Shown here: piece by piece, positions 8,398 through 23,054 of the stretch
How positions within the stretch are numbered: the first letter of the stretch is position 1
Layout of the letters: the number at the start of each line of letters is the position of its first letter
DNA from: a virus
Taxonomy: Duplodnaviria > Heunggongvirae > Uroviricota > Caudoviricetes
Virus record (IMG/VR): IMGVR_UViG_3300013102_000003
Location: 6,644-70,643 of that record
Length of the DNA stretch: 64,000 bases
Strand: one strand, 5' to 3'
The notes under the pieces: generated by a model
What the model was told of the DNA's origin: nothing
The model's input: the letters and a program-made list of their open reading frames with translations, nothing else
The model's database searches: none
Made by a program: the position numbers and the translations under genes

Positions 8398-8825
8398 AGA
8401 TTGGAATCGACATTGGACGTGTCATCATCGGCGGCGAGGGTGAGGATACCATCTTCAACGAGGAGAACTACCTGCTCTCTCCGGAAGTTCCGGGAGCCTA
8501 CAGAGCGGTGAGCAAGCTCGCCAAGCAGCGGCATGAACTCCACATCATCTCCAAGTGTGGGGAAGTTGTGGAGGAACGGTCCATGGACTGGCTGGATGCT
8601 GAGGGATTCTTCTATCACATCCTCCCGCACCGAGTCCATTTCGTGCGGAAGCGCCATCTGAAGTCTCCGATGGCTCTGGCTCTTGAGCTTGACATCTTCA
8701 TTGATGACCGTCTGGACATCATCGACTCCATGGAGCAGACTGTCAAGAACCGCATCCTGTTCATCGACTGGGAGCACGCCAACAGGGAACTGGAGAAGAT
8801 CTTTGACAAAGCTCCTGAAGGGTGA
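8394..8825 (+). CDS. Hypothetical protein
   Basis: 143 aa, start overlaps the stop of the previous gene (ATGA-type). No confident family assignment. Confidence 0.4.
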   Translation: MKIGIDIGRVIIGGEGEDTIFNEENYLLSPEVPGAYRAVSKLAKQRHELHIISKCGEVVEERSMDWLDAEGFFYHILPHRVHFVRKRHLKSPMALALELDIFIDDRLDIIDSMEQTVKNRILFIDWEHANRELEKIFDKAPEG

Positions 8826-8868
8826 TATAGTTAAGATCGTTGGAGCGCATAAACGACTGACAACCGGA

Positions 8869-9012
8869 GAGATGATCGACAAGCTCGGTTTGATTTCTGA
8901 AGTCGTAGATGATACAATGATACGGGTAGGAAAGAATTGGTACCTTACCGAAGAGTTCGAAATCGAACTGCTTCACAGAGAAGTTGACACAGCCTCTCAG
9001 AGTATGGTATAA
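8869..9012 (+). CDS. Small hypothetical protein (47 aa) whose stop codon lies inside a promoter -10
   Basis: ggagag RBS then ATG 8869. It ends …ASQSMV* with the stop inside tggTATAATag. The C-terminus resembles that of the small ORF ending at 11527. Confidence 0.3.
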   Translation, partial: EMIDKLGLISEVVDDTMIRVGKNWYLTEEFEIELLHREVDTASQSMV

Positions 9013-9013
9013 T
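8984..9013 (+). promoter_or_regulatory. Sigma-70-like promoter (TTGACA-18-TGgTATAAT)
   Basis: ttgaca 8984-8989, 18-nt spacer ending tgg, tataat 9008-9013. Member of a motif repeated across the window. Confidence 0.6.
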
Positions 9014-9089
9014 AGAAGTACACGAAGCGCTGGAGAAGGTTACTTCTTTGGGTGAAAACACACTTTCTCTGTTTTTTCTCGTGTCACTT

Positions 9090-9160
9090 AGGTCTTTGGT
9101 GTAGTGGTAACATGTCGGTCTCCAAAACCGTTGTCAGCAGTTCGAACCTGCTAGGACCTG
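9090..9160 (+). tRNA. tRNA-Trp (CCA)
   Basis: Anticodon loop cuCCAaa, T-arm agcag-ttcgaac-ctgct, and a 7-bp acceptor aggtctt/aggacct. Folded by eye. Confidence 0.7.
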
Positions 9161-9209
9161 CAAGTTTGCACAAACTATAAATGTGTGATAGAATGTAGTA
9201 ACACAGCTT

Positions 9210-9283
9210 CGGGCTGTAGCTCAGCTTGGTAGAGCGCCTGTTTTGGGAACAGGAAGTCGCAGGTTCAAATCCTGTCTGCCCGA
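9210..9283 (+). tRNA. tRNA-Pro (TGG)
   Basis: D-arm tagctcagcttggtagagc, anticodon stem cctgt/acagg with loop ttTGGga, T-arm gcagg-ttcaaat-cctgt. Confidence 0.7.
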
Positions 9284-9469
9284 CGAATGACCGATGCGAT
9301 TGAAAAAGATACTTCATCGAATAGATAATATAGGTATCGGCCAAGAGGAAACTCTTGTCCCTAGCACTGGAACCTTCCAGTTTGTTTTTCAGTTTCACAT
9401 GTAGTACAATAGCTTTACCCGCAGTACAAACCTCTTTTTCTGGTTTTTCTCGGTCATACAATTTTGAAA

Positions 9470-9575
9470 GAAGCGCTAGGACTCTGTTACTTCTCGGATG
9501 AAACCGACCGTAACTGGTTGGTGAGGGTTCAAACCCCTCATTACACAGATTCCGCTTTTACTCTTTCATACAATG
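9470..9575 (+). ncRNA. tRNA-like element (GAAGCG…GTTACTTC motif + anticodon-arm-like + T-arm-like hairpins, no acceptor); candidate Y-RNA-like / tRNA-mimic RNA
   Basis: gaagcg 9470-9475 and gttacttc 9486-9493. Hairpin cgacc-gtaactg-ggttg, then gaggg-ttcaaac-ccctc. No complementary acceptor strands. Confidence 0.35.
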
Positions 9576-9647
9576 CGAAAGTAGCTCAGTTGGTAGAGCG
9601 CCTTCCTTCCAAGTAGGATGTCGCGGGTTCGAGTCCCGTCTTTCGCT
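9575..9647 (+). tRNA. tRNA-Gly (TCC)
   Basis: Acceptor gcgaaag/ctttcgc, D-arm tagctcagttggtagagc, anticodon loop cuTCCaa, T-arm gcggg-ttcgagt-cccgt. Confidence 0.7.
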
Positions 9648-9781
9648 CTAGTACAGATGTGATTAGTCAGGTTACTTCCAACTGTTAATTGAAATCAACA
9701 CTTGACTTACCGTGTTCTCTGTATTAAGCTTTAACTGTTATCAGGAATTCCTGAATTGAAAATGACGAAAGGTAAATAAAC

Positions 9782-11407
9782 ATGTCCAAGTTCAACAACA
9801 CTTCTGCCCGCGCTCGCGCTGGTGCAGGTCCAATCAACTCAACCACTGAAACGACCACCTTCAACGGTGCCAAGGGTTTCAACCGTGACGCCAAGTCCGA
9901 ACTCTTCCTCGCTGCTGTCTCCGACTTCGGTGGAGAGGGTTCGTTCTACGAGTCCGCGTCCAACCGCTCTGACCGTATCACCCGACTGACCCATGAGGTC
10001 GCCGTGGCTGACCCGGAGTGGCTGACCCAGTTCACCAACTGGCTTCGTGAAGAGGCCAACATGCGTACGATCTCCCTGACGATTGCTCTGGAAGGTGCCA
10101 AGGCACTCAACACGGCAAACATTCCGGGCGGACGCAAGGTTGTCTCCGGTGCGATCCGTCGTGCCGATGAGGCCGGTGAGGCTCTGGCCTACTGGTTCGC
10201 TGCCCACGGTCGCAAGATCCCTTCTGCCATCAAGCGTGGTATCGCTGACGGGGCTGTCAAGTCCTTCAACGAGTACTCCCTTGCCAAGTACGACACCTCC
10301 TCGCACGGCTTCCGCTTCGGTGACGTGATCGAACTGACCCACCCTTCCCCGAAGGATGACCGCCAGTCCGACCTCTTCAAGTTTGCGCTTGACCGTCGTC
10401 GTGACGCTTCTGCTGAGCCTGCCGAGTCCCTTGTCATGCTCCAGAAGCGCAAGGAATTCCTCGCTCTGTCCTCGGACAAGCAGAAGGCTCTTGTCAACTC
10501 CGGTGAGGCCATTCAGGTTCTCAAGGACGCTGGCCTGACGTGGGAGGTTCTGTCCTCTGCGTACGGTAAGGGTGGCCTCGACGCCAAGGCGTGGGAAGCT
10601 GTAATCCCGTCCATGGGTTACATGGCTCTGCTCCGCAACCTCCGCAGCTTCGAAGAGAAGGGCGTCTCTGAGGCCGTTCTCGCTCAGGTAGCGGCCCGTA
10701 TCGCTGATCCGGAAGAGGTTGCCAAGAGCCGCCAGCTTCCGTTCCGCTTCCTTGCGGCCTACAAGGCGAACTCCGGTTCGCTGCGTTGGGGCTTCCCGCT
10801 GGAGCAGGCTCTCAAGGCCTCTCTGGAGAACGTCCCGGCCCTGAAGGGTAATACCCTGATCCTTGTGGACCGTTCCGGCTCCATGTTCCAGTCGTTCTCC
10901 AAGAACACTGACCTCACCTTTGCGGACTCCGCTGCGATCTTTGGATCTGCTCTGGCTCTGCGTGCTGAAAATGCCACGCTTGTCCAGTTCGGTTCAAGCT
11001 CCGTTGCGGTACCGTTCAAGAAGAGCGACAGCGTTCTGAAGACCATCGAGAAGTTCTCATCCCTCGGTGGAACGGCAACGTACGACGCCATCAAGAACCA
11101 CTTCGATCCGAAGAAGCACACCCGTGTGGTTCTGATCACGGACGAGCAGGCGAACGGGTTCTACCACCGTCTCAACGGCAACAACGCGAACTACTGGAGC
11201 GGCTATGACCGTGTTCAGGGCAACGTCCTCGATGCGGTCCCGGCCAACGTTCCGACGTTCACGTGGAACCTTGAGGGGTACGCGGCAGGCCACGGCGAGT
11301 CCAAGCCCAACCGCACGTACCTCGGTGGACTGTCCGATCAGGCTTTCAAGCTGATCCCGATCCTCGAATCCGGGCGTGATGCCGGATGGCCTTGGGAAAC
11401 TAAGTGA
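9782..11407 (+). CDS. rsr: Ro60-like (TROVE domain) protein with C-terminal vWA domain (Rsr ortholog)
   Basis: 541 aa. Good RBS gaaagg. The C-terminal LILVDRSGSM MIDAS motif marks a vWA domain, and the N-terminal ~350 aa are helical and TROVE-like. TROVE+vWA is the Ro60/Rsr architecture. Confidence 0.6.
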   Translation: MSKFNNTSARARAGAGPINSTTETTTFNGAKGFNRDAKSELFLAAVSDFGGEGSFYESASNRSDRITRLTHEVAVADPEWLTQFTNWLREEANMRTISLTIALEGAKALNTANIPGGRKVVSGAIRRADEAGEALAYWFAAHGRKIPSAIKRGIADGAVKSFNEYSLAKYDTSSHGFRFGDVIELTHPSPKDDRQSDLFKFALDRRRDASAEPAESLVMLQKRKEFLALSSDKQKALVNSGEAIQVLKDAGLTWEVLSSAYGKGGLDAKAWEAVIPSMGYMALLRNLRSFEEKGVSEAVLAQVAARIADPEEVAKSRQLPFRFLAAYKANSGSLRWGFPLEQALKASLENVPALKGNTLILVDRSGSMFQSFSKNTDLTFADSAAIFGSALALRAENATLVQFGSSSVAVPFKKSDSVLKTIEKFSSLGGTATYDAIKNHFDPKKHTRVVLITDEQANGFYHRLNGNNANYWSGYDRVQGNVLDAVPANVPTFTWNLEGYAAGHGESKPNRTYLGGLSDQAFKLIPILESGRDAGWPWETK

Positions 11408-11497
11408 GTCTCTGGCTCCTGTTTCCTCTTGGTATCGCTCTCCTTGCATTTGCGGGAGAGCGGTACAAGGCCCAGCATGGGTCACCGTACGAAGAAG

Positions 11498-11527
11498 TTG
11501 ACAAGGCTTCTGAAGACGTGGTATAAT
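11498..11527 (+). promoter_or_regulatory. Sigma-70-like promoter (TTGACA-18-TGgTATAAT), embedded in the 3' end of a 41-codon ORF
   Basis: gaagttgacaaggcttctgaagacgtggtataatag is near-identical to the 8984 and 14380 copies. Confidence 0.6.
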
Positions 11528-11547
11528 AGATTTACTGATGCGATAGA

Positions 11548-11610
11548 GAAGCGTTACTTCCTTTCATGAAAAAGTTCTGGGTTCGAGTCCCAGTCACCTC
11601 CGGGTGGTAG
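11548..11610 (+). ncRNA. tRNA-like element: GAAGCGTTACTTC motif + T-arm-like hairpin + closed acceptor-like hairpin
   Basis: gaagcg 11548-11553 overlaps gttacttc 11553-11560. T-arm-like ctggg-ttcgagt-cccag is followed by a cacc-tccg-ggtg hairpin. No 5' acceptor or D-arm. Confidence 0.35.
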
Positions 11611-11657
11611 ATTAATTGGCAAATCAAACACGTTTCTCACCTCTTTCTCAGTATAAT

Positions 11658-11732
11658 GCTTCCTTAGCTCAGCACGGCCAGAGCGGCGCTCTTGTAAAGC
11701 GTAGGTCATCGGTTCGAATCCGATAGGAAGCT
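11658..11732 (+). tRNA. tRNA-Thr (TGT)
   Basis: Acceptor gcttcct/aggaagc perfect. Anticodon stem gcgct/agcgt with loop cuTGTaa. T-arm atcgg-ttcgaat-ccgat. Confidence 0.8.
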
Positions 11733-11741
11733 CGATGTTCA

Positions 11742-11835
11742 GAAGCGATTGAAAGCTGTTACTTCATATTGCACATGACCAGTGCCGGTTCGATTCCGGC
11801 TCACGCCCGTATGGGTGTGATAGTGTAAGGGTTCG
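11742..11835 (+). ncRNA. tRNA-like element: motif + T-arm-like hairpin + 7-bp acceptor-like stem closed by a short loop (permuted-tRNA-like order)
   Basis: gaagcg 11742-11747, gttacttc 11758-11765. T-arm gccgg-ttcgatt-ccggc 11784-11800. tcacgcc (11801-11807) pairs 7/7 with the downstream ggtgtga (11814-11820). Confidence 0.35.
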
Positions 11836-11886
11836 CACGGAAAACACACAGAGTTCGCCTTTTTCTCTGGACACTAAATTTATACC

Positions 11887-12029
11887 GAAGCGACGTGTCA
11901 AGTTACTTCATAGGAAACAGTGGGTCGCAGGTTCAAATCCTGCTCTCCCGACTTCATCGGGAGGTAGCTCAGTCCGGATAGAGCAACCGTATAGCAAATC
12001 ACTTGACCAGCCTTTTCTCGGTATATTAT
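11887..12029 (+). ncRNA. tRNA-like element: motif + T-arm + acceptor 3' strand followed (not preceded) by complementary acceptor 5' strand and D-arm; no anticodon arm
   Basis: gaagcg 11887-11892, gttacttc 11903-11910. T-arm gcagg-ttcaaat-cctgc. tctcccg, then a 7-nt loop acttcat, then cgggagg + tagctcagtccggatagagc (D-arm-like). The sequence then degenerates. Confidence 0.35.
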
Positions 12030-12103
12030 GGCACTGTAGCTCAGTTGGACAGAGTACTGGATTGAAAACCCAGAGGCCACGGGTTCGAATCCCGTTGGTG
12101 CCA
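12030..12103 (+). tRNA. tRNA-Phe (GAA)
   Basis: D-arm tagctcagttggacagagt, loop auuGAAaa, T-arm acggg-ttcgaat-cccgt, acceptor ggcactg/tggtgcc with G-U pairs. Confidence 0.7.
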
Positions 12104-12113
12104 CGTAAGACCT

Positions 12114-12184
12114 TCCCCTGTAGTGTAACGGCAGCACGAGAGCCTTTGGATCTCTTAGCCTAGGTTCGAATCCCAGTGGGGGAT
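12114..12184 (+). tRNA. tRNA, probably Gln (TTG); non-standard D-arm
   Basis: Loop cuTTGga, T-arm ctagg-ttcgaat-cccag (1 mismatch), acceptor tcccctg/tggggga. Isotype assignment is uncertain. Confidence 0.45.
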
Positions 12185-12229
12185 CTATGGTATAATGATA
12201 GAGTTACGTAACACACACTAGGAGTTCAA

Positions 12230-12427
12230 ATGGCTATTCCAGCTAACAGTTCAAAGATGTCGGAAAACCTCCGTCACGTCAATCAGGGTGCTCGCCCTGC
12301 CGAAATTACCGAGAACCAGCGCATTGCGCTGCGCGACGACTCCCCTGCCGGTGACTCCACTGGCGAGTCACACGCGACCGAGAACTCGGAAAACAAGCGT
12401 ATCGGGACCGTAGTCTACCCGGCTTAA
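12230..12427 (+). CDS. Small hypothetical protein (65 aa)
   Basis: Strong RBS aggag. It is preceded by a tggtataat promoter and followed by a terminator. Confidence 0.45.
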   Translation: MAIPANSSKMSENLRHVNQGARPAEITENQRIALRDDSPAGDSTGESHATENSENKRIGTVVYPA

Positions 12428-12440
12428 TCATTACCTGATT

Positions 12441-12480
12441 AAGGGGCTGACTACTACCAAGTAGTCGGCCCCTTTTTCTT
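12441..12480 (+). terminator. Rho-independent terminator
   Basis: aaggggctgactact-acca-agtagtcggcccctt followed by tttctt. Confidence 0.7.
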
Positions 12481-12551
12481 ACCCACATCGTATAACGGCA
12501 ATACAACGGTTTCTGGTACCGTTAATTGAGGTTCGAATCCTTGTGTGGGTG
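12481..12551 (+). tRNA. tRNA-Gln (CTG)
   Basis: Acceptor acccaca/tgtgggt perfect. Anticodon stem acggt/accgt with loop uuCTGgu. Confidence 0.65.
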
Positions 12552-12564
12552 CGCAGCACAATAA

Positions 12565-12637
12565 GGTCGCTTAGCTCAGCAGGTAGAGCGCCACTCTGAT
12601 AAGGTGGATGTCGTGGGTTCAAGTCCCACAGTGGCCA
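12565..12637 (+). tRNA. tRNA-Ile (GAT)
   Basis: D-arm tagctcagcaggtagagcg, stem ccact/ggtgg with loop cuGATaa, T-arm gtggg-ttcaagt-cccac. Confidence 0.7.
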
Positions 12638-12655
12638 CGTAATATAACTGAATAA

Positions 12656-12727
12656 GCCCCCATAGTCTATGGGTTAAGATTCTGGATTTTCACTCCGGGG
12701 TATCGAGTTCGAGTCTCGGTGGGGGTA
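12656..12727 (+). tRNA. tRNA-Glu (TTC)
   Basis: Acceptor gccccca/tgggggt. Stem ctgga/tccgg with loop uuTTCac. T-arm tcgag-ttcgagt-ctcgg. Confidence 0.65.
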
Positions 12728-12728
12728 C

Positions 12729-12864
12729 GGGAAAGTAGCTCAAGGTAGAGTGCTTGGCGTCGTGACGGTTGCAAACGGAACGTGCCCATGTTGGGGTTGA
12801 TCACCTAGCGTGTCGGTTTGTAGCCGAAGCGGATGAGGGTATCGCAGTCCGTCCTTTCCTGTCT
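12729..12864 (+). pseudogene. tRNA fragment/pseudogene (acceptor+D-arm only) plus another GAAGCG motif copy
   Basis: gggaaagtagctcaaggtagagt (tRNA 5' third) with no anticodon or T-arm. ccgaagcgg lies at ~12823. Confidence 0.3.
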
Positions 12865-12938
12865 GGTCCATTAGGCGAATTGGCCAAGCCGTCACCCTCT
12901 CACGGTGAAGATTAGGGGTTCGAGTCCCCTATGGACTA
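12865..12938 (+). tRNA. tRNA-Glu (CTC)
   Basis: Every element checks to the nucleotide. Acceptor ggtccat/atggact, D ggc-gaattggccaa-gcc, perfect stem tcacc/ggtga with loop cuCTCac, T-arm agggg-ttcgagt-cccct. Confidence 0.65.
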
Positions 12939-13401: not shown

Positions 13402-14379
13402 ATGTTTATTGAACCCATGCTGGCCTCCAGCACTCCCGAGAAGAAGCGTGCTACGCTCTCCGACACAACTGGCTACGTGCTGGAACCCAAGCACGACGGC
13501 ATGCGGGCGGTCATCTCCAAGCGCGACGGAGAGGTCAAGATCTACAGCCGAGTCGGTCTGGAGTATCAGGAACACCTCCCGGCCCTTGTCTCGCAGCTTT
13601 CCCATCTCCCTGACGGAACCACCCTTGACGGTGAACTCATGATCGTCAGACACCGTACCGTCATTGACGGACACACGATTGCTGTGGCTGACTTCAACGC
13701 CACGATGCGTATCATGGGTTCCGGCCCGGAAAAGGCGATCAAGCGTCAGGAAGAGAGCACGATTGAGTTCTGTGTGTTCGACATGCCAAAGCTTGACGGA
13801 GTAAACCTCATGGGTTCATCCTACGACTCTCGGATGTTCGCCCTGAACGACTACCTCACCGGCAAGGAATGGATGATGCCTCACGTCTTCCAGAACGCAC
13901 GACTTACGGAGTGGGACAACGACTTCATCGACAAGCTGATGGCAGCAGGCATTGAGGGCGCGATCCTCAAGAACGTAGACTCGGTCTACATTCCGGGCAA
14001 GCGACGTGCCAACACGTGGTACAAGGTCAAGGCCGAACTCACCGCTGACGTGGTCGTAATGGGCTACACGGACGCCAAGGAAGGCAAGACAGGCAAATGG
14101 CTGGGAAAGGTAGGGGCACTAATTTTCGGTGCCTACAATGACCAGCAGGAGCTTGTGGAGGTCGGCCAGTGTTCCGGCATGACCGATGCAGAGCGTGACC
14201 GCTGGACATCGATCCGTGATTACGATACGGAGAATGCTCTCCGAGTCATCGAAGTGAAGTACAATGATCTGGTCGGTTCCGGCGAGTTCGGAACCCCGCG
14301 CCACCCGCAGTTCAAGATTGAGCGCATCGACAAGAACCCTGATGACTGCCTGATGGAGCAGTTCCGACTCGACAAGTAG
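13402..14379 (+). CDS. ATP-dependent DNA ligase
   Basis: Adenylation motif I LEPKHDGMRAV (KxDG). 325 aa, of minimal phage-ligase size, with downstream OB-like region motifs. Confidence 0.75.
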   Translation: MFIEPMLASSTPEKKRATLSDTTGYVLEPKHDGMRAVISKRDGEVKIYSRVGLEYQEHLPALVSQLSHLPDGTTLDGELMIVRHRTVIDGHTIAVADFNATMRIMGSGPEKAIKRQEESTIEFCVFDMPKLDGVNLMGSSYDSRMFALNDYLTGKEWMMPHVFQNARLTEWDNDFIDKLMAAGIEGAILKNVDSVYIPGKRRANTWYKVKAELTADVVVMGYTDAKEGKTGKWLGKVGALIFGAYNDQQELVEVGQCSGMTDAERDRWTSIRDYDTENALRVIEVKYNDLVGSGEFGTPRHPQFKIERIDKNPDDCLMEQFRLDK

Positions 14380-19610: not shown

Positions 19611-19850
19611 ATGAAACAAAGAGATTTTGAGAAGATTTCGATCAGCAATGGAAACTTTCAAGGACTGAAGGTAGGGTTCGTATGCCCTCACCGACTATCT
19701 TATGAGGCTACAGAGAAAATCCTCGTACTTCTGCATAAGGTAAACGCACTGGCGTCGGATAAGAGCAACTTCATCACAGATGAGGAAGCCTCCGAACTGG
19801 ATGCCAGTGGTAAGATCCCCACGATAGACGCAGACGATTTCGATGACTGA
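19611..19850 (+). CDS. Hypothetical protein (79 aa)
   Basis: ORF with overlap into the next gene. No family recognised. Confidence 0.35.
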   Translation: MKQRDFEKISISNGNFQGLKVGFVCPHRLSYEATEKILVLLHKVNALASDKSNFITDEEASELDASGKIPTIDADDFDD

Positions 19851-20577
19851 CTACTTTGACGGCCCCCTCTTAGGATTCGACATCGAGAGCACTGGTGTTG
19901 ACCAGTGGGAGGATCGTGTGGTAACGTTCTCTATGGTGTACTCAGCCTACAGGGGAGCCAATCCGGAGATTCTGGAATGGCTCATTGACCCCGGAGTTGA
20001 GATTGCGGAAGGTGCCACAGCAGTACACGGGATCTCAACGGAGTACGCGGCAGAGTTCGGCAAGCAGGCGCACAACGCCATGCCGTACATTGCCCGTCGT
20101 ATGGAGAAGATCGTTGACCATGGAATCCCTTTCGTGATCTACAATGCGCCCTTCGACACGACGATGATCTACAACGAGTTCGAACGCTACAACGTTCCGC
20201 TCCGGTACACTAGGGAACAGATGTTCGCCAAAGTCATCGACCCTCTGGTCATCGACAAGGCGTGCGACAAGTACCGCAAGGGTTCCCGCAAACTGACGGA
20301 CACAGCCAAGCTCTACGGCTTCGACCTGACGAACGCCCACAACTCCACTGCGGACGTTTCGGCAACCCTCTATATCGCCCGCCAGCTTGGGAAGTTCTTC
20401 AAGCCGGAGATGACAATCGAGATGTTGCAGGAATTCCAGAAGGATGCTAAGATGGAGCAAAGCACTTCGTTCCAGCGCTACCTTCGGAAGAAGACGGACG
20501 AAGAGGGCAACCTCGTAGAACCAAACGCGGTCATCTCCACAGAGTGGCCGTTCCAAACGACGAAAGAGACACATTGA
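19843..20577 (+). CDS. DnaQ-like 3'-5' exonuclease (DEDDh)
   Basis: Exo I GFDIESTG, Exo II VIYNAPFD, Exo III HNSTADVSAT. Confidence 0.7.
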   Translation: MTDYFDGPLLGFDIESTGVDQWEDRVVTFSMVYSAYRGANPEILEWLIDPGVEIAEGATAVHGISTEYAAEFGKQAHNAMPYIARRMEKIVDHGIPFVIYNAPFDTTMIYNEFERYNVPLRYTREQMFAKVIDPLVIDKACDKYRKGSRKLTDTAKLYGFDLTNAHNSTADVSATLYIARQLGKFFKPEMTIEMLQEFQKDAKMEQSTSFQRYLRKKTDEEGNLVEPNAVISTEWPFQTTKETH

Positions 20578-21478: not shown

Positions 21479-21552
21479 GGTATTGTGGAGCAGTTGGAGT
21501 GCTCGCCGTCCTGTCAAGACGGAGGTCGCGGGTTCAAGTCCCGTCAGTACCG
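21479..21552 (+). tRNA. tRNA-Asp (GTC)
   Basis: D-arm tggagcagttggagtgctc, perfect stem ccgtc/gacgg with loop cuGTCaa, T-arm gcggg-ttcaagt-cccgt. Confidence 0.75.
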
Positions 21553-21553
21553 C

Positions 21554-21627
21554 GTTGGCTGTAGCTCAGTTGGTAGAGCGTCTGGTTGTGGTCCAGAATG
21601 TCGCGGGTTCAAGCCCCGTCAGTCACC
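21554..21627 (+). tRNA. tRNA-His (GTG) with 5' G-1
   Basis: Stem tctgg/ccaga with loop uuGTGgu. An extra 5' G pairs with discriminator C, which is a His hallmark. T-arm gcggg-ttcaagc-cccgt. Confidence 0.65.
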
Positions 21628-22085: not shown

Positions 22086-23054
22086 TTGCGTCAGCTTGTC
22101 ACGCTCGAAACCATTTCCGAAATCAATCCCATCCCAGATGCTGACCAAATTGAGGTAGCTAAAGTTAAGGGATGGAACGTTGTTGTTAAAAAAGGTGAGT
22201 TCTCCGTTGGTGAAGAAATTCTGTATTTCGAGATCGACTCATTTTTGCCCATCTCAGATCCGCGCTTTGCATTTCTGGAGCCACGTGGCGTCCGTGTACA
22301 GGATGGAGTCACGGGGCATGTCCTCAAGACCGTCCGTCTTCGTGGGCAGTACTCTCAAGGACTTCTCAAACCCGTCTCGGAATTCCCAGAAGGTATCCCT
22401 GATATCGCCAAGTTCGATCCGCCCCTGCCAGCAGGCCTCGACGGCTCGGTGGAGGGTCAATTCCTTTACCAGTTCGCACCAAAAACTGATGCTGAACGCA
22501 TCCAGAATCTCGGTCGAGTCCTCCCTGAAATTCTCTCGCACGAGTGGATTGCAACCGAGAAGATCGACGGCACTTCAACGACAATTGTCAATGACGACGG
22601 AACCATCCGGATCTGCTCCCGAAACTGGGAAATTAGTCGCCCCTCAGCACGTTTCGACCTTGCGGACAAACTCAATCTCGCTGAAATCCTTCCAGTAGAT
22701 CATACACTTCAGGGTGAATACTTCGGTGAGAACATCCAGAGCAACCCTCTCGGCATCAAGGGAACCGACTTCAAGGCCTTCAATCTCTACAAGAAGACCG
22801 AAGACGGCCCCGAAGCCATCCCGTTCAACGAGTGGCCCGACGCATTGCGCTCTCTACAGGTCCCTGTACTGCCTCTAAGGCTCCCGCAGACCATCGATGA
22901 CATCGTGGAGCAGGCTGACGGTTTGAAGTCTCAGATCGCCCCACAGCGCCTCGCAGAGGGTATCGTCTGGCAGGGTCCGAAGGGCTTCCCGTTCCTCGGT
23001 AACCGTCCGGGCTTCAAGGCCATCTCCAACAAGTACCTCGCCAAGCAAAAGTAA
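22086..23054 (+). CDS. ATP-dependent RNA ligase (nucleotidyltransferase superfamily, N-terminal OB-like domain + KxDG NTase domain)
   Basis: Motif I ATEKIDGTS (KxDG), TTG start. The N-terminal about 150 aa OB-like domain precedes the NTase domain, as in Rnl5/DraRnl-type ligases. A dedicated ATP-dependent DNA ligase is already present at 13402. Confidence 0.5.
   Translation: MRQLVTLETISEINPIPDADQIEVAKVKGWNVVVKKGEFSVGEEILYFEIDSFLPISDPRFAFLEPRGVRVQDGVTGHVLKTVRLRGQYSQGLLKPVSEFPEGIPDIAKFDPPLPAGLDGSVEGQFLYQFAPKTDAERIQNLGRVLPEILSHEWIATEKIDGTSTTIVNDDGTIRICSRNWEISRPSARFDLADKLNLAEILPVDHTLQGEYFGENIQSNPLGIKGTDFKAFNLYKKTEDGPEAIPFNEWPDALRSLQVPVLPLRLPQTIDDIVEQADGLKSQIAPQRLAEGIVWQGPKGFPFLGNRPGFKAISNKYLAKQK

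What the first reader, a model, noticed from the sequence alone, without database searches (positions are those of the whole stretch)
9024..12029. Ro60 (TROVE+vWA) gene flanked by non-canonical tRNA-like RNAs: candidate phage Y-RNA / tRNA-mimic set
Seen in sequence: a 541-aa TROVE-like + vWA (MIDAS DRSGSM) protein at 9782-11407 sits between two tRNA clusters. On both sides are elements that carry a canonical T-arm (5-bp stem + TTCGAnT loop) and acceptor-type 7-bp helices, but no anticodon arm. In the 11742 and 11887 copies the 3' acceptor strand is followed, not preceded, by its perfect 7/7 complement; the 11887 copy also carries a D-arm-like segment after it. This order is the reverse of a tRNA gene. 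Established knowledge: bacterial Ro60 orthologs (Rsr) bind Y RNAs; one class (YrlA-type) contains a tRNA-like module and is encoded next to rsr, and phage-borne copies are known. Inference: these elements are Ro-bound Y-RNA-like or tRNA-mimic ncRNAs rather than decayed tRNAs.
Basis: partly seen in the sequence, partly recalled or inferred. Interest (0 to 1): 0.85.

Follow-up and report, generated by a model that had tools for sequence, protein, structure and literature searches.

The report
Phage Ro60 gene with seven Y RNAs
A phage tRNA island carries a Ro60-type RNA-binding protein gene flanked by seven unannotated small-RNA genes of the known bacterial Y RNA (YrlA) family, three with a full tRNA-like domain; the kind is known, but the set is unusually large.

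Summary
ORF 9782-11407 is a Ro60 homolog: Pfam TROVE E=2.5e-17, vWA/MIDAS DRSGSM, nearest solved structure Thermus phage phiLo Ro60 (E=2.5e-31). There are seven same-strand elements, not four or five: 9018-9086, 9287-9457, 9464-9569, 9650-9725, 11531-11655, 11736-11873 and 11881-12025. All share one base module: a terminal helix, a 5' GA(A/U)G(C/U)G loop, a middle helix and a (G/A)UUACUUC junction. The apical modules differ:
- C, D and E carry T arm, closed acceptor hairpin and D arm, the YrlA architecture.
- B carries a hairpin plus T arm.
- A and B2 carry a short loop.
- A2 carries two hairpins.

Covariation is strong (91% of cells paired against 66% in shuffles). A covariance model built here recovers all seven at exact boundaries. 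It also finds homologs upstream of Ro genes in 30 of 31 viral and 80 of 80 actinobacterial loci. Three syntenic Ro-less Arthrobacter phages lack every element.

Phage Ro60 with Y RNAs is already described (mycobacteriophages, phiLo), so this is a new member of a known kind. New points are the sevenfold expansion, the interleaving with tRNA genes at 1-7 nt spacing, and the missing or wrong annotation in related records. RNA expression, Ro binding and function remain untested.

The parts
8984..9013 (+). Consensus sigma-70-type promoter (TTGACA-18-TGgTATAAT). Its -10 ends 4 nt before Y RNA A.
   Evidence: 12/12 match with TG extension. A similar promoter lies upstream of the Atuin ortholog.
9018..9086 (+). 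Y RNA A, short-loop (YrlB-like) type. Lower helix 9018-9025 / 9079-9086; GAAGCG 9024-9029; middle helix 9031-9040 / 9062-9071; UACUUC 9041-9046; apical loop UUUGGGUGAAAACAC. Ends 3 nt before tRNA-Trp (9090).
   Evidence: Model R1 34.7 bits, E=1e-6, full length, not in the training set. Orthologs in Atuin, L129, L131 and L132. Coordinates.
9287..9457 (+). Y RNA A2. Y-type base module (9287-9315 with 9433-9457) and a distinct 120-nt apical module without T arm. Two conserved hairpins at 9342-9357 and 9366-9381; the second resembles a terminator. Starts 2 nt after tRNA-Pro.
   Evidence: R1 42.7 bits, E=6.6e-9. Conserved in L129-L132 with compensatory changes in both hairpins. Fold z=-3.96. Terminator-like site. 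Absent from Atuin.
9464..9569 (+). Y RNA B. Base module plus hairpin 9504-9521 plus T arm 9523-9539; no acceptor hairpin or D arm. Ends 5 nt before tRNA-Gly.
   Evidence: R1 36.8 bits, E=2.7e-7. The MFE fold reproduces the model, z=-3.47. Orthologs show covarying hairpin and T stem.
9650..9725 (+). Y RNA B2, short-loop type. Lower helix 9650-9657 / 9718-9725; middle helix 9665-9672 / 9700-9707. Starts 1 nt after tRNA-Gly and lies 56 nt upstream of the Ro start codon.
   Evidence: R1 37.8 bits, E=1.4e-7. Orthologs with compensatory changes in the middle helix. Single-sequence fold is not significant, z=-0.06.
9782..11407 (+). Ro60 / Rsr homolog, 541 aa: TROVE ring domain plus vWA domain with MIDAS motif DRSGSM.
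   Evidence: Pfam TROVE 2.5e-17 and VWA_2 1.3e-5. PDB 9KOP/9L5Y, Thermus phage phiLo Ro60, E=2.5e-31 over residues 21-459. 71% identical to Atuin gp111 'Ro-like RNA binding protein'.
11498..11527 (+). Second consensus promoter (TTGACA-18-TGgTATAAT). Its -10 ends 3 nt before Y RNA C.
   Evidence: 12/12 match. A similar promoter lies in Atuin.
11531..11655 (+). Y RNA C, YrlA type. T arm 11577-11593; short acceptor hairpin 11594-11607 (5 bp, UCCG loop); D arm 11610-11625; middle helix 11546-11554 / 11630-11638. Ends 2 nt before tRNA-Thr.
   Evidence: R1 82.2 bits, E=1e-19, not in the training set. Rfam YrlA 26.4 bits. The MFE fold reproduces all helices. The apical module varies among orthologs and is absent in Atuin.
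11736..11873 (+). Y RNA D, YrlA type. T arm 11784-11800; closed acceptor hairpin 11801-11820 (7-8 bp); D arm 11823-11838; middle helix 11751-11759 / 11848-11856. Starts 2 nt after tRNA-Thr.
   Evidence: R1 107.2 bits, in the training set. Covariation. Orthologs in Atuin, L130, L131 and GiJojo.
11881..12025 (+). Y RNA E, YrlA type. T arm 11927-11943; closed 7-bp acceptor hairpin 11944-11964 (C1:G72, A73-like); canonical D arm 11967-11984; middle helix 11897-11903 / 12001-12007. Ends 4 nt before tRNA-Phe.
   Evidence: Rfam YrlA 29.4 bits, E=0.0015, full length. R1 121.4 bits, in the training set. The tRNA-like part is closest to the phage's own tRNA-Pro.
9090..9648 (+). tRNA-Trp (9090-9161), tRNA-Pro (9210-9284) and tRNA-Gly (9575-9648), which punctuate the upstream Y RNAs.
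   Evidence: ARAGORN and Rfam tRNA, 57-70 bits.
11658..12104 (+). tRNA-Thr (11658-11733) and tRNA-Phe (12030-12104), which bracket Y RNAs D and E.
   Evidence: In Ro-less relatives these two tRNAs are only 4 nt apart.

Best explanation
The segment 8984-12029 is a phage Ro60 ribonucleoprotein locus.

Identity. It encodes a Ro60/Rsr ring protein and seven paralogous Y RNAs on the same strand, embedded in the phage's tRNA gene island.

RNA anatomy. Each RNA has a common base module:
- a terminal helix formed by its 5' and 3' ends;
- an asymmetric internal loop whose 5' strand is (C)GA(A/U)G(C/U)G, opposite a pyrimidine-rich YUUUUC. This 5' strand is the counterpart of the CGAA / GNCGAAN0-1G motif that Ro60 proteins contact;
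- a covarying 8-10 bp middle helix;
- the conserved (G/A)UUACUUC junction, which corresponds to the YUAY of YrlA RNAs.

On this base sits a variable apical module:
- C, D and E carry a full tRNA-like domain in permuted order (T arm, closed acceptor hairpin, D arm);
- B carries a hairpin plus T arm;
- A and B2 carry a short conserved loop;
- A2 carries a two-hairpin module.

Inferred steps.
- Two consensus promoters start transcription at the 5' ends of A and C.
- The Y RNAs and tRNAs are made as polycistronic precursors with 1-7 nt spacers.
- RNase P and the tRNA 3'-end nuclease, by cutting out the tRNAs, release the Y RNAs.
- The base module docks on the phage Ro ring.
- The apical modules tether Ro to partners or gate its cavity. 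By analogy with D. radiodurans, Salmonella and Thermus phage phiLo, the likeliest partner is host PNPase, retargeting structured-RNA decay or quality control during infection.
- The 7-bp acceptor hairpins of D and E may be cut by RNase P and receive CCA, as shown for M. smegmatis YrlA.

Shown and not shown. Shown here: sequence homology, structure covariation, linkage to Ro, and packing with tRNAs. Not shown: expression, processing, Ro binding, partner identity and biological role.
For: Protein. Pfam TROVE and vWA. Closest solved structure is phage phiLo Ro60.

Shared motif. It is found seven times, only on this strand and only here.

Base-module helices, 26 elements from 5 phages.
- 87.3% of cells paired against 53.5% in shuffles and at most 52.9% in slid registers; covariation score 0.852 against 0.188; 0 of 500 shuffles reach it.
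- Fair control with the same optimisation: 14.9 of 17 pairs for matched 5' and 3' arms against 11.65 +/- 1.4 for mismatched arms.

Full five-helix YrlA-type structure on contiguous sequences.
- 91.2% paired against 66.1%; 26 of 34 pairs show compensatory change.
- On 53 homologs, 94.4% against 63.5% (alignment fitted to the model).
- RNAalifold independently finds the terminal helix, T arm and 8-bp acceptor hairpin.

Covariance model R1.
- Recovers all seven elements at the hand-derived boundaries. Five of them were not in the training set.
- Finds nothing else in the 64 kb apart from two weak partial hits on tandem tRNA junctions.
- Hits lie directly upstream of Ro, same strand, in 30 of 31 IMG/VR loci and 80 of 80 actinobacterial chromosomal loci.

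Co-occurrence with Ro. Racecar, Mimi and Talia1610 keep the same tRNA order but have no Ro gene and no element. Their Thr-Phe spacing is 4 nt, against 296 nt in the window.

Other RNA evidence. Rfam YrlA is the only non-tRNA family with E<0.02 on the elements.

Transcription and packing. Two 12/12 promoters abut A and C. Spacers to flanking tRNAs are 1-5 nt.

Literature.
- YrlA features, and RNase P cleavage plus CCA addition of M. smegmatis YrlA: PMC4201824.
- phiLo Ro60 binds two phage Y-like RNAs and host PNPase: PMC12135203.
Against: - No RNA-seq, RIP or biochemical data exist for this phage.
- Rfam's curated YrlA threshold is not reached: 29.4 and 26.4 bits against 69.
- The strict GNCGAAN0-1G motif is matched only in part. 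CGAAG occurs in A and E; the others have AGAAG, CGAUG, AGAUG or UGAUG.
- The base-module alignment (A1) was engineered: the apical part was removed and the 3' arms were located partly by complementarity. A4 is fitted to the model. Both inflate pairing somewhat.
- B2 alone has no fold-energy signal, z=-0.06.
- A2 contains a terminator-like hairpin (9366-9381) that could stop transcription before its 3' arm. Its own base helices show no variation among orthologs.
- The PNPase-tether role rests purely on analogy.
Confidence: 0.85

Rival explanations
1. The RNAs are Y RNA homologs, but their main job in the phage is tRNA mimicry. The tRNA-like domains of C, D and E would act as decoys or competitive inhibitors for host tRNA-targeting nucleases, or as sponges for tRNA-processing enzymes, protecting the phage's 29 tRNAs. 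Ro would serve mainly to stabilise them.
For: - The locus sits inside the tRNA island.
- An RNA ligase (PF09414) lies in the same island at 22086-23054. Streptomyces phage Kela has an RNA ligase next to its Ro gene.
- The tRNA-like part of E is closest to the phage's own tRNA-Pro, with C1:G72 and an A73 equivalent.
- Hughes et al. 2020 (PMC7790460) raise YrlA as a possible competitive inhibitor of an anticodon nuclease.
Against: - The tRNA-like domains lack an anticodon arm, the usual target of anticodon nucleases.
- Four of the seven RNAs (A, A2, B, B2) lack a complete tRNA-like domain, and three of them have no T arm, yet all keep the Ro-type base module.
- The same RNA family sits next to Ro in 80 of 80 bacterial chromosomes outside any phage-defence context.
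Confidence: 0.2
2. The elements are Ro-independent cis-acting parts of the tRNA operons. They would be spacer structures, promoters, attenuators or processing signals that happen to contain tRNA-like pieces.
For: - They are packed 1-7 nt from tRNA genes.
- Their 3' tails (ACAAU, AU, UUAU) directly precede RNase P sites.
- A2 contains a terminator-like hairpin.
Against: - Three relatives with the same tRNA genes in the same order lack every element together with the Ro gene.
- In Streptomyces and Gordonia phages and in bacterial chromosomes the same RNAs sit upstream of Ro, often with no tRNA nearby.
- Long-range terminal helices with compensatory changes are not expected of simple spacers.
Confidence: 0.04
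3. They are decaying tRNA pseudogenes or chance tRNA fragments left by rearrangement of a tRNA cluster.
For: - T arms and D arms are tRNA-like.
- The T arm of E shares 19 identical bases with tRNA-Pro.
- The covariance model gives weak partial hits on tandem tRNA junctions.
Against: - The non-tRNA base module is conserved.
- All five helices show compensatory substitutions across phages of three host genera and across bacteria.
- Orthologous classes are retained between Arthrobacter and Streptomyces phages.
- The elements are strictly linked to Ro.
Confidence: 0.02

Closest known systems
Actinobacterial YrlA / YrlB Y RNAs (Mycobacterium smegmatis; Chen et al. 2014, PMC4201824; Rfam RF02553)
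   Same: - Encoded next to the Ro60 ortholog on the same strand.
- 5' CGAA-type motif.
- YUAY junction (UUAC here).
- Permuted tRNA-like domain (V region, T arm, closed acceptor hairpin, D arm) in one RNA, and simpler hairpin or T-arm-only companions.
- 7-bp acceptor hairpin as in M. smegmatis YrlA.
- My model built from the phage RNAs hits one or two sites upstream of Ro in 80 of 80 actinobacterial loci.
   Different: - Seven genes instead of about two.
- They flank the Ro gene on both sides and alternate with tRNA genes.
- An extra class (A2) has a two-hairpin apical module.
- Scores stay below Rfam's gathering threshold.
- No experimental data.
Thermus phage phiLo Ro60 with Yrl1 and Yrl2 (NAR 2025, PMC12135203; PDB 9KOP, 9L5Y)
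   Same: - Phage-encoded Ro60 (TROVE plus vWA/MIDAS). It is the closest solved structure to this protein, E=2.5e-31.
- Y-like RNAs encoded beside the gene, with a 5'-3' stem and a bulge carrying CGAA.
   Different: - phiLo has two Y-like RNAs upstream; here there are seven, three of them with full tRNA-like domains.
- Different host phylum.
- Binding to host PNPase is shown for phiLo and only inferred here.
Mycobacteriophage (e.g. ET08) and other phage YrlA candidates listed by Chen et al. 2014
   Same: Actinophage genomes with a Ro60 gene and YrlA-like RNA within 4 kb. Twenty-two phages were reported.
   Different: - That survey reported only the best Infernal matches: 355 RNAs in 276 genomes, about 1.3 per genome.
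- It discarded hits overlapping tandem tRNAs.
- Arrays of 4-7, and the companions lacking a T arm, are not described in the text I could read. The supplementary tables were not available.
Deinococcus radiodurans Rsr-Yrn1-PNPase (RYPER) and vertebrate Ro60-Y RNA RNPs
   Same: A ring protein bound to a helix formed by the RNA's 5' and 3' ends. A second RNA module acts as a tether or gate. Several Y RNA paralogs exist per genome (four in humans).
   Different: - The order of the T and D arms differs from Yrn1.
- The 3' strand of the vertebrate Ro-binding helix is not conserved here.
- Transcription is from sigma-70-type promoters in tRNA operons rather than by Pol III.

Membership tests
YrlA-type bacterial Y RNA (Chen et al. 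2014) | Encoded within about 4 kb of a Ro60 ortholog, on the same strand | tested here: met
   All seven lie on the + strand, from 764 nt upstream of the start codon to 618 nt downstream of the stop codon.
YrlA-type bacterial Y RNA (Chen et al. 2014) | GNCGAAN0-1G motif near the 5' end (putative Ro-binding site) | tested here: inconclusive
   A and E have CGAAG. The others have AGAAG, CGAUG, AGAUG or UGAUG. The G two bases before the C is absent. All seven share GA(A/U)G(C/U)G. Related actinophages have CGAUGCG or CGG(U/A)GCG.
YrlA-type bacterial Y RNA (Chen et al. 2014) | Conserved YUAY at the start of the V region | tested here: met
   UUAC (six elements) or AUAC (A2) within (G/A)UUACUUC.
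YrlA-type bacterial Y RNA (Chen et al. 2014) | T-arm-like stem-loop, then a closed acceptor-like stem-loop, then a D-arm-like stem-loop | tested here: met
   Met for C, D and E. Helices 3-5 are 87.5-100% paired on alignment A3, and 14 of their 17 pairs show compensatory change. On A4 (53 homologs, model-fitted) they are 97-100% paired. B has only a T arm. A, A2 and B2 have none, so they are companions of YrlB type rather than YrlA.
YrlA-type bacterial Y RNA (Chen et al. 2014) | Helix formed by the 5' and 3' ends of the RNA | tested here: met
   Lower helix 89% paired, with 6 of 8 pairs showing both-sided change across 26 elements.
YrlA-type bacterial Y RNA (Chen et al. 2014) | [quoted passage not shown] | not testable with these tools
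   Needs RIP, EMSA, Northern blots or modification mapping.
Rfam RF02553 (YrlA) | Score at or above the gathering threshold of 69 bits | tested here: not met
   Best hits are 29.4 bits (11896-12011) and 26.4 bits (11574-25). Relatives reach at most 47 bits. The Rfam model does not capture this actinophage branch, so I do not file the elements as RF02553 members by Rfam's own criterion.
Ro60 / Rsr protein | TROVE (HEAT-repeat ring) domain | tested here: met
   PF05731, 63.6 bits against a cut-off of 23. Aligns to phiLo Ro60 over residues 21-459.
Ro60 / Rsr protein | C-terminal vWA domain with MIDAS DxSxS | tested here: met
   DRSGSM aligns with DVSGSM of 9KOP. Pfam VWA_2 scores 26.2 bits, just under its cut-off of 27.
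Ro60 / Rsr protein | Closed ring fold with a central cavity | not tested
   No structure prediction was run. The sequence match to a solved ring was judged sufficient.
tRNA (RF00005) | Cloverleaf with anticodon arm, in the order acceptor-D-anticodon-T-acceptor | tested here: not met
   No ARAGORN or Rfam tRNA hit on any of the seven, even at E<=10. The order is permuted and the anticodon arm is replaced by the Ro-type stem.

The most novel reading that the evidence does not exclude
One phage Ro60 ring is served by a seven-member adaptor set. At least three Y RNA classes appear conserved between Arthrobacter and Streptomyces phages: the E class with a canonical D arm and a tRNA-Pro-like acceptor, the D class with a GUGUAAU-GGCAGCAC D arm, and the short UUGG...GAAA loop class. 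Each would direct Ro to a different partner or substrate. The whole set would be matured by the tRNA-processing machinery as a tRNA-punctuated operon. D and E would be further cut by RNase P and given CCA, becoming two-piece tRNA-like RNPs. As far as I could find, this would be the largest Y RNA repertoire of any virus or prokaryote. It would give a compact genetic system for testing the idea that Y RNAs are modular adaptors.
Probability: 0.3. Interest if true: 0.6.

Novelty: new member of a known kind. Interest (0 to 1): 0.4.

Why it matters
- Gap in annotation tools. Rfam's curated threshold misses a whole actinophage and actinobacterial branch of Y RNAs. Public phage records leave them unannotated or mislabel them. 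Two annotated tRNA-Arg genes and several small ORFs in related phages overlap these elements.
- Reusable signature. The motif GA(A/U)G(C/U)G ... UUACUUC and the covariance model built here can be used to annotate them.
- Biology. The roles of Ro60 and Y RNAs in bacteria and phages are still poorly understood. This phage has seven paralogs with different apical modules, tightly linked to its tRNA genes and close to an RNA ligase. It also has natural Ro-less relatives with the same tRNA order. That makes it a convenient system for asking what each Y RNA module recruits and whether phage Ro RNPs act in tRNA or rRNA quality control or in hijacking host PNPase.

Tried and rejected
- Exact-pattern scan of IMG/VR with GAAGCG-N8-12-GTTACTTC. 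I replaced it with a protein-anchored search.
- Search for the experimentally validated M. smegmatis YrlA using the complement of the published 5' probe. No exact match in the genome collection, so a direct comparison with that RNA was not possible. The link to cellular YrlA rests on 80 other actinobacterial loci.
- Distant blastn of 11531-12029 against phage records. Apart from Atuin, only tRNA-Thr matched.
- Supplementary tables of Chen et al. 2014 and two reviews (PMC10870794, PMC6047535) were not available. I could not check how many Y RNAs per phage were listed before.
- Shuffling the 5' arm as a control for duplex energy had little power, because long targets always offer alternative pairings. 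I replaced it with matched-versus-mismatched arm comparisons.
- Idea that each tRNA-like Y RNA copies a particular phage tRNA. This holds only for E, which resembles tRNA-Pro. C and D show no specific match.
- Considered and rejected: tmRNA or permuted tmRNA (only T-loop-sized Rfam fragments), CRISPR repeats, and tRNA pseudogenes.

Full report
**What is in the sequence**

The window comes from an actinophage. Its closest public relative is Arthrobacter phage Atuin, about 81% DNA identity over the Ro gene and 71% protein identity. ORF 9782-11407 (+, 541 aa) has a Pfam TROVE domain (E=2.5e-17, 63.6 bits) and a vWA domain with DRSGSM. Its best match among solved structures is the Ro60 of Thermus phage phiLo (9KOP/9L5Y, E=2.5e-31, residues 21-459). 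ARAGORN and Rfam find 29 tRNA genes in the window. Trp, Pro and Gly lie just upstream of the ORF, and Thr, Phe and Gln just downstream.

**The elements**

Reading 8400-12900 shows a recurring 5' signature, GA(A/T)G(C/T)G-N9-10-(G/A)TTACTTC. A regular-expression scan finds it seven times on the + strand: at 9024, 9293, 9470, 9656, 11537, 11742 and 11887. No match outside this segment recurs as a covariance-model hit. Six of the seven GTTACTTC octamers in the 64 kb lie here on this strand, against about 2.8 expected in the whole window on both strands. The '11548' copy actually begins at 11531.

Duplex and MFE folding, together with comparison to Atuin, give one architecture for all seven:

- a terminal (lower) helix formed by the bases just before GA and the bases just after a YUUUUC run near the 3' end;
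- an internal loop, 5' (A/U)G(C/U)G;
- an 8-10 bp middle helix, formed by the variable N9-10 with a 3' strand that follows a conserved C;
- the UACUUC junction;
- an apical module.

The element boundaries are 9018-9086 (A), 9287-9457 (A2), 9464-9569 (B), 9650-9725 (B2), 11531-11655 (C), 11736-11873 (D) and 11881-12025 (E).

The apical modules differ:

| Element(s) | Apical module |
|---|---|
| C, D, E | T arm, closed acceptor hairpin (5, 7-8 and 7 bp), then D arm with GG in the loop |
| B | variable hairpin plus T arm |
| A, B2 | loop of about 21 nt (UUGG...GAAA type) |
| A2 | two conserved hairpins, no T arm |

**Is the structure real?**

- *Base module across paralogs and orthologs.* For 26 elements from five phages (window, Atuin, GiJojo, BRock, Rabbitrun) I built a 53-column alignment of the base module with the apical part removed.
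  - 87.3% of cells pair, against 53.5% in shuffles and at most 52.9% in slid registers.
  - 15 of 17 pairs show both-sided changes.
  - The covariation score is 0.852 against 0.188, reached by 0 of 500 shuffles.
- *Fair control.* The 3' arms were located partly by complementarity. I therefore repeated the same optimisation on mismatched 5' and 3' arms. Matched arms give 14.9 of 17 pairs; mismatched arms give 11.65 +/- 1.40.
- *Contiguous sequences.* On eight YrlA-type elements aligned by MAFFT, the five-helix structure is 91.2% paired against 66.1%, with 26 of 34 pairs compensatory. RNAalifold on its own finds the terminal helix, the T arm and the 8-bp acceptor hairpin.
- *Large set.* A model-fitted alignment of 53 homologs gives 94.4% against 63.5%. 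This figure leans towards the model.
- *Single-sequence energies.* Fold z-scores are modest, from -0.06 for B2 to -3.96 for A2. The case rests on covariation, not on energy.

**Family and distribution**

Rfam's YrlA model (RF02553) is the only non-tRNA family that hits the elements with E<0.02: 29.4 bits at 11896-12011 and 26.4 bits at 11574-11625. This is far below its 69-bit gathering score. The same holds in relatives, where the maximum is 47 bits.

A covariance model built here (R1) behaves as follows:

- It recovers all seven window elements full length at my boundaries. C, A2, B2, B and A were not in the training set. They score 82.2, 42.7, 37.8, 36.8 and 34.7 bits.
- It finds nothing else in the window, apart from two weak partial hits on tandem tRNA junctions. 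Chen et al. warned of this class of false positive.
- It finds full-length hits directly upstream of the Ro gene, on the same strand, in 30 of 31 IMG/VR loci encoding a Ro relative.
- It does the same in 80 of 80 actinobacterial chromosomal loci (Streptomyces, Kitasatospora, Nonomuraea and others). Their Ro is about 50% identical, and they carry one or two RNAs each: 137 hits, all on the + strand.

The phage RNAs therefore belong to the same lineage as cellular actinobacterial Y RNAs. The published features of that group are:

- a CGAA-type 5' motif;
- YUAY at the start of the V region;
- V, T, AS and D stem-loops;
- a location within 4 kb of Ro on the same strand;
- in M. smegmatis, a 7-bp acceptor stem that is cleaved by RNase P and receives CCA (PMC4201824).

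All are matched here except the strict GNCGAAN0-1G motif, which is only partly matched.

**Linkage to Ro**

Three Arthrobacter phages (Racecar, Mimi, Talia1610) keep the same gene order: ribonucleotide reductase, then tRNA-Trp, Pro, Gly, Thr, Phe and Gln. They have no Ro gene and none of the elements. Their Thr and Phe genes are 4 nt apart, whereas in the window 296 nt holding D and E separate them. Atuin and the four closest IMG/VR contigs have Ro and 4-7 elements in the same positions, two of the four being truncated loci. The RNAs and the protein are gained or lost together.

**Expression model (inferred)**

Two perfect extended -10 promoters (TTGACA-18-TGgTATAAT) end 4 nt before A and 3 nt before C. 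Similar promoters lie upstream of the Atuin orthologs. The remaining junctions are very tight:

| Junction | Spacer |
|---|---|
| A to tRNA-Trp | 3 nt |
| tRNA-Pro to A2 | 2 nt |
| A2 to B | 6 nt |
| B to tRNA-Gly | 5 nt |
| tRNA-Gly to B2 | 1 nt |
| C to tRNA-Thr | 2 nt |
| tRNA-Thr to D | 2 nt |
| D to E | 7 nt |
| E to tRNA-Phe | 4 nt |

The simplest reading is two polycistronic Y RNA-tRNA(-Ro) transcripts. RNase P and the tRNA 3' nuclease, by releasing the tRNAs, would also define most Y RNA ends. No terminator separates B2 from the Ro ORF. A terminator-like hairpin inside A2 (9366-9381) may attenuate read-through.

**Function (inferred)**

In D. radiodurans and Salmonella, Y RNA tethers Rsr to PNPase, and its tRNA-like domain is the effector side (bioRxiv 10.1101/312249; PMC4201824). 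For Thermus phage phiLo, the phage Ro60 binds two phage Y-like RNAs and forms ternary complexes with host PNPase (PMC12135203).

The most likely mechanism here is the same. The base module docks on the phage Ro ring, and the apical modules recruit host factors to retarget decay or quality control of structured RNA. I give this about 0.35-0.4.

A decoy role for the tRNA-like domains against tRNA-directed nucleases is a serious alternative, at about 0.2. It was suggested for Salmonella YrlA (PMC7790460). It fits the tRNA island and the nearby RNA ligase at 22086-23054.

**Evolutionary notes**

- Orthologous classes appear to be shared between Arthrobacter and Streptomyces phages: the E class, the D class, and the short UUGG...GAAA class.
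- The apical module at position C is plastic. It is a full tRNA-like domain in the window and in L130, T-arm-only in L131, and absent in Atuin.
- The tRNA-like part of E is closest to the phage's own tRNA-Pro. It shares 19 identical bases across the T arm, and has C1:G72 and an A at the discriminator position.

**Novelty and score**

Phage Ro60 genes with YrlA-like RNAs have been known since 2014, with 22 phages listed. A phage Ro60-Y RNA complex has been solved. This is therefore a new member of a known kind.

What is new:

- The set is expanded to seven. About two is typical in the bacterial loci and one to four in most of the phage loci I surveyed.
- The Y RNA genes alternate with tRNA genes.
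- The A2 class has no described counterpart that I could find.
- These RNAs are missed by Rfam's threshold and by the public annotation of related phages.

A specialist would find this useful rather than very surprising. I score interest at 0.4.

Noticed in passing
window 12729-12861: A tRNA-like element lies between tRNA-Glu(ttc) and tRNA-Glu(ctc). It has an acceptor stem (GGGAAAG/CUUUCC) and a D arm, but about 60 extra nt where the anticodon arm should be. Rfam tRNA scores 22.4 bits, below the cut-off of 29, and ARAGORN does not call it. A structured spacer of similar size with a closing stem is present in Atuin and in the Ro-less relatives, so it is unrelated to Ro. It could be an intron-containing or otherwise unusual tRNA, or another ncRNA.
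   Followed up: partly
L003 2769-2843 (GiJojo 'tRNA-Arg(cct)'); L006 2704-2775 (VanLee 'tRNA-Arg(tct)'); L005 2421-2778 (Rabbitrun gp93, gp94): Features annotated in public records overlap Y RNA elements. The two 'tRNA-Arg' genes score only 24.1 and 26.9 bits on Rfam tRNA, below the cut-off of 29. They coincide with full-length hits of my Y RNA model or with YrlA hits. The small Rabbitrun ORFs cover three Y elements. These are probably misannotations.
   Followed up: partly
window 11927-11964 compared with tRNA-Pro 9210-9284: The T arm of Y RNA E shares 19 consecutive identical bases (GTCGCAGGTTCAAATCCTG) with the phage's own tRNA-Pro. Its acceptor hairpin keeps C1:G72 and an A73 equivalent. 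This suggests derivation from tRNA-Pro or gene conversion with it.
   Followed up: partly
window 22086-23054, 13402-14379, 19843-20577: The tRNA island also encodes an RNA ligase (PF09414 plus the PHA02142 OB fold), an ATP-dependent DNA ligase and an RNase T / DnaQ-like exonuclease. In Streptomyces phage Kela an RNA ligase sits directly upstream of the Ro gene. This may point to an RNA repair or turnover context.
   Followed up: no
window 9366-9381: An intrinsic-terminator-like hairpin (ACTGGAACCTTCCAGT followed by TTGTTTTTCA) lies inside Y RNA A2. It is conserved with compensatory changes in four related contigs. It could attenuate transcription towards B, tRNA-Gly, B2 and Ro.
   Followed up: partly
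L002 3940-4024, L160 3916-4000, L161 3907-3966; window 21528-21584: The Y RNA model gives partial hits (T arm to D arm only) across tandem tRNA junctions spaced 1-4 nt apart. In the Ro-less relatives the hit falls on the Thr-Phe junction, the site where D and E sit in the window. This shows that a tRNA-tRNA junction is formally a permuted tRNA-like domain, which is a possible route by which YrlA-type modules arose.
   Followed up: no
L004 5079-5242 (Streptomyces phage BRock): A near-threshold match to the manA RNA motif (49.7 bits against 55.2, E=8.4e-10) lies between two tRNA-Lys genes downstream of the Ro gene. It overlaps an annotated 'collagen triple helix' CDS.
   Followed up: no
window 11404-11526: A 40-codon ORF with a hydrophobic N-terminus (MSLWLLFPLGIALLAFAG...) overlaps the Ro stop codon (GTGA) and ends at the second promoter. 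In Atuin the sequence after the Ro stop also looks leucine- and alanine-rich, but I did not translate or align it.
   Followed up: no
L162-L241 (genome contigs): At least 564 actinobacterial genome stretches encode a relative of this phage protein, and the 80 best kept are about 47-52% identical. Each of those 80 has one or two Y RNA model hits within about 500 nt upstream. The phage gene set looks like a capture, and then an expansion, of the host-lineage rsr-Y RNA cassette.
   Followed up: partly
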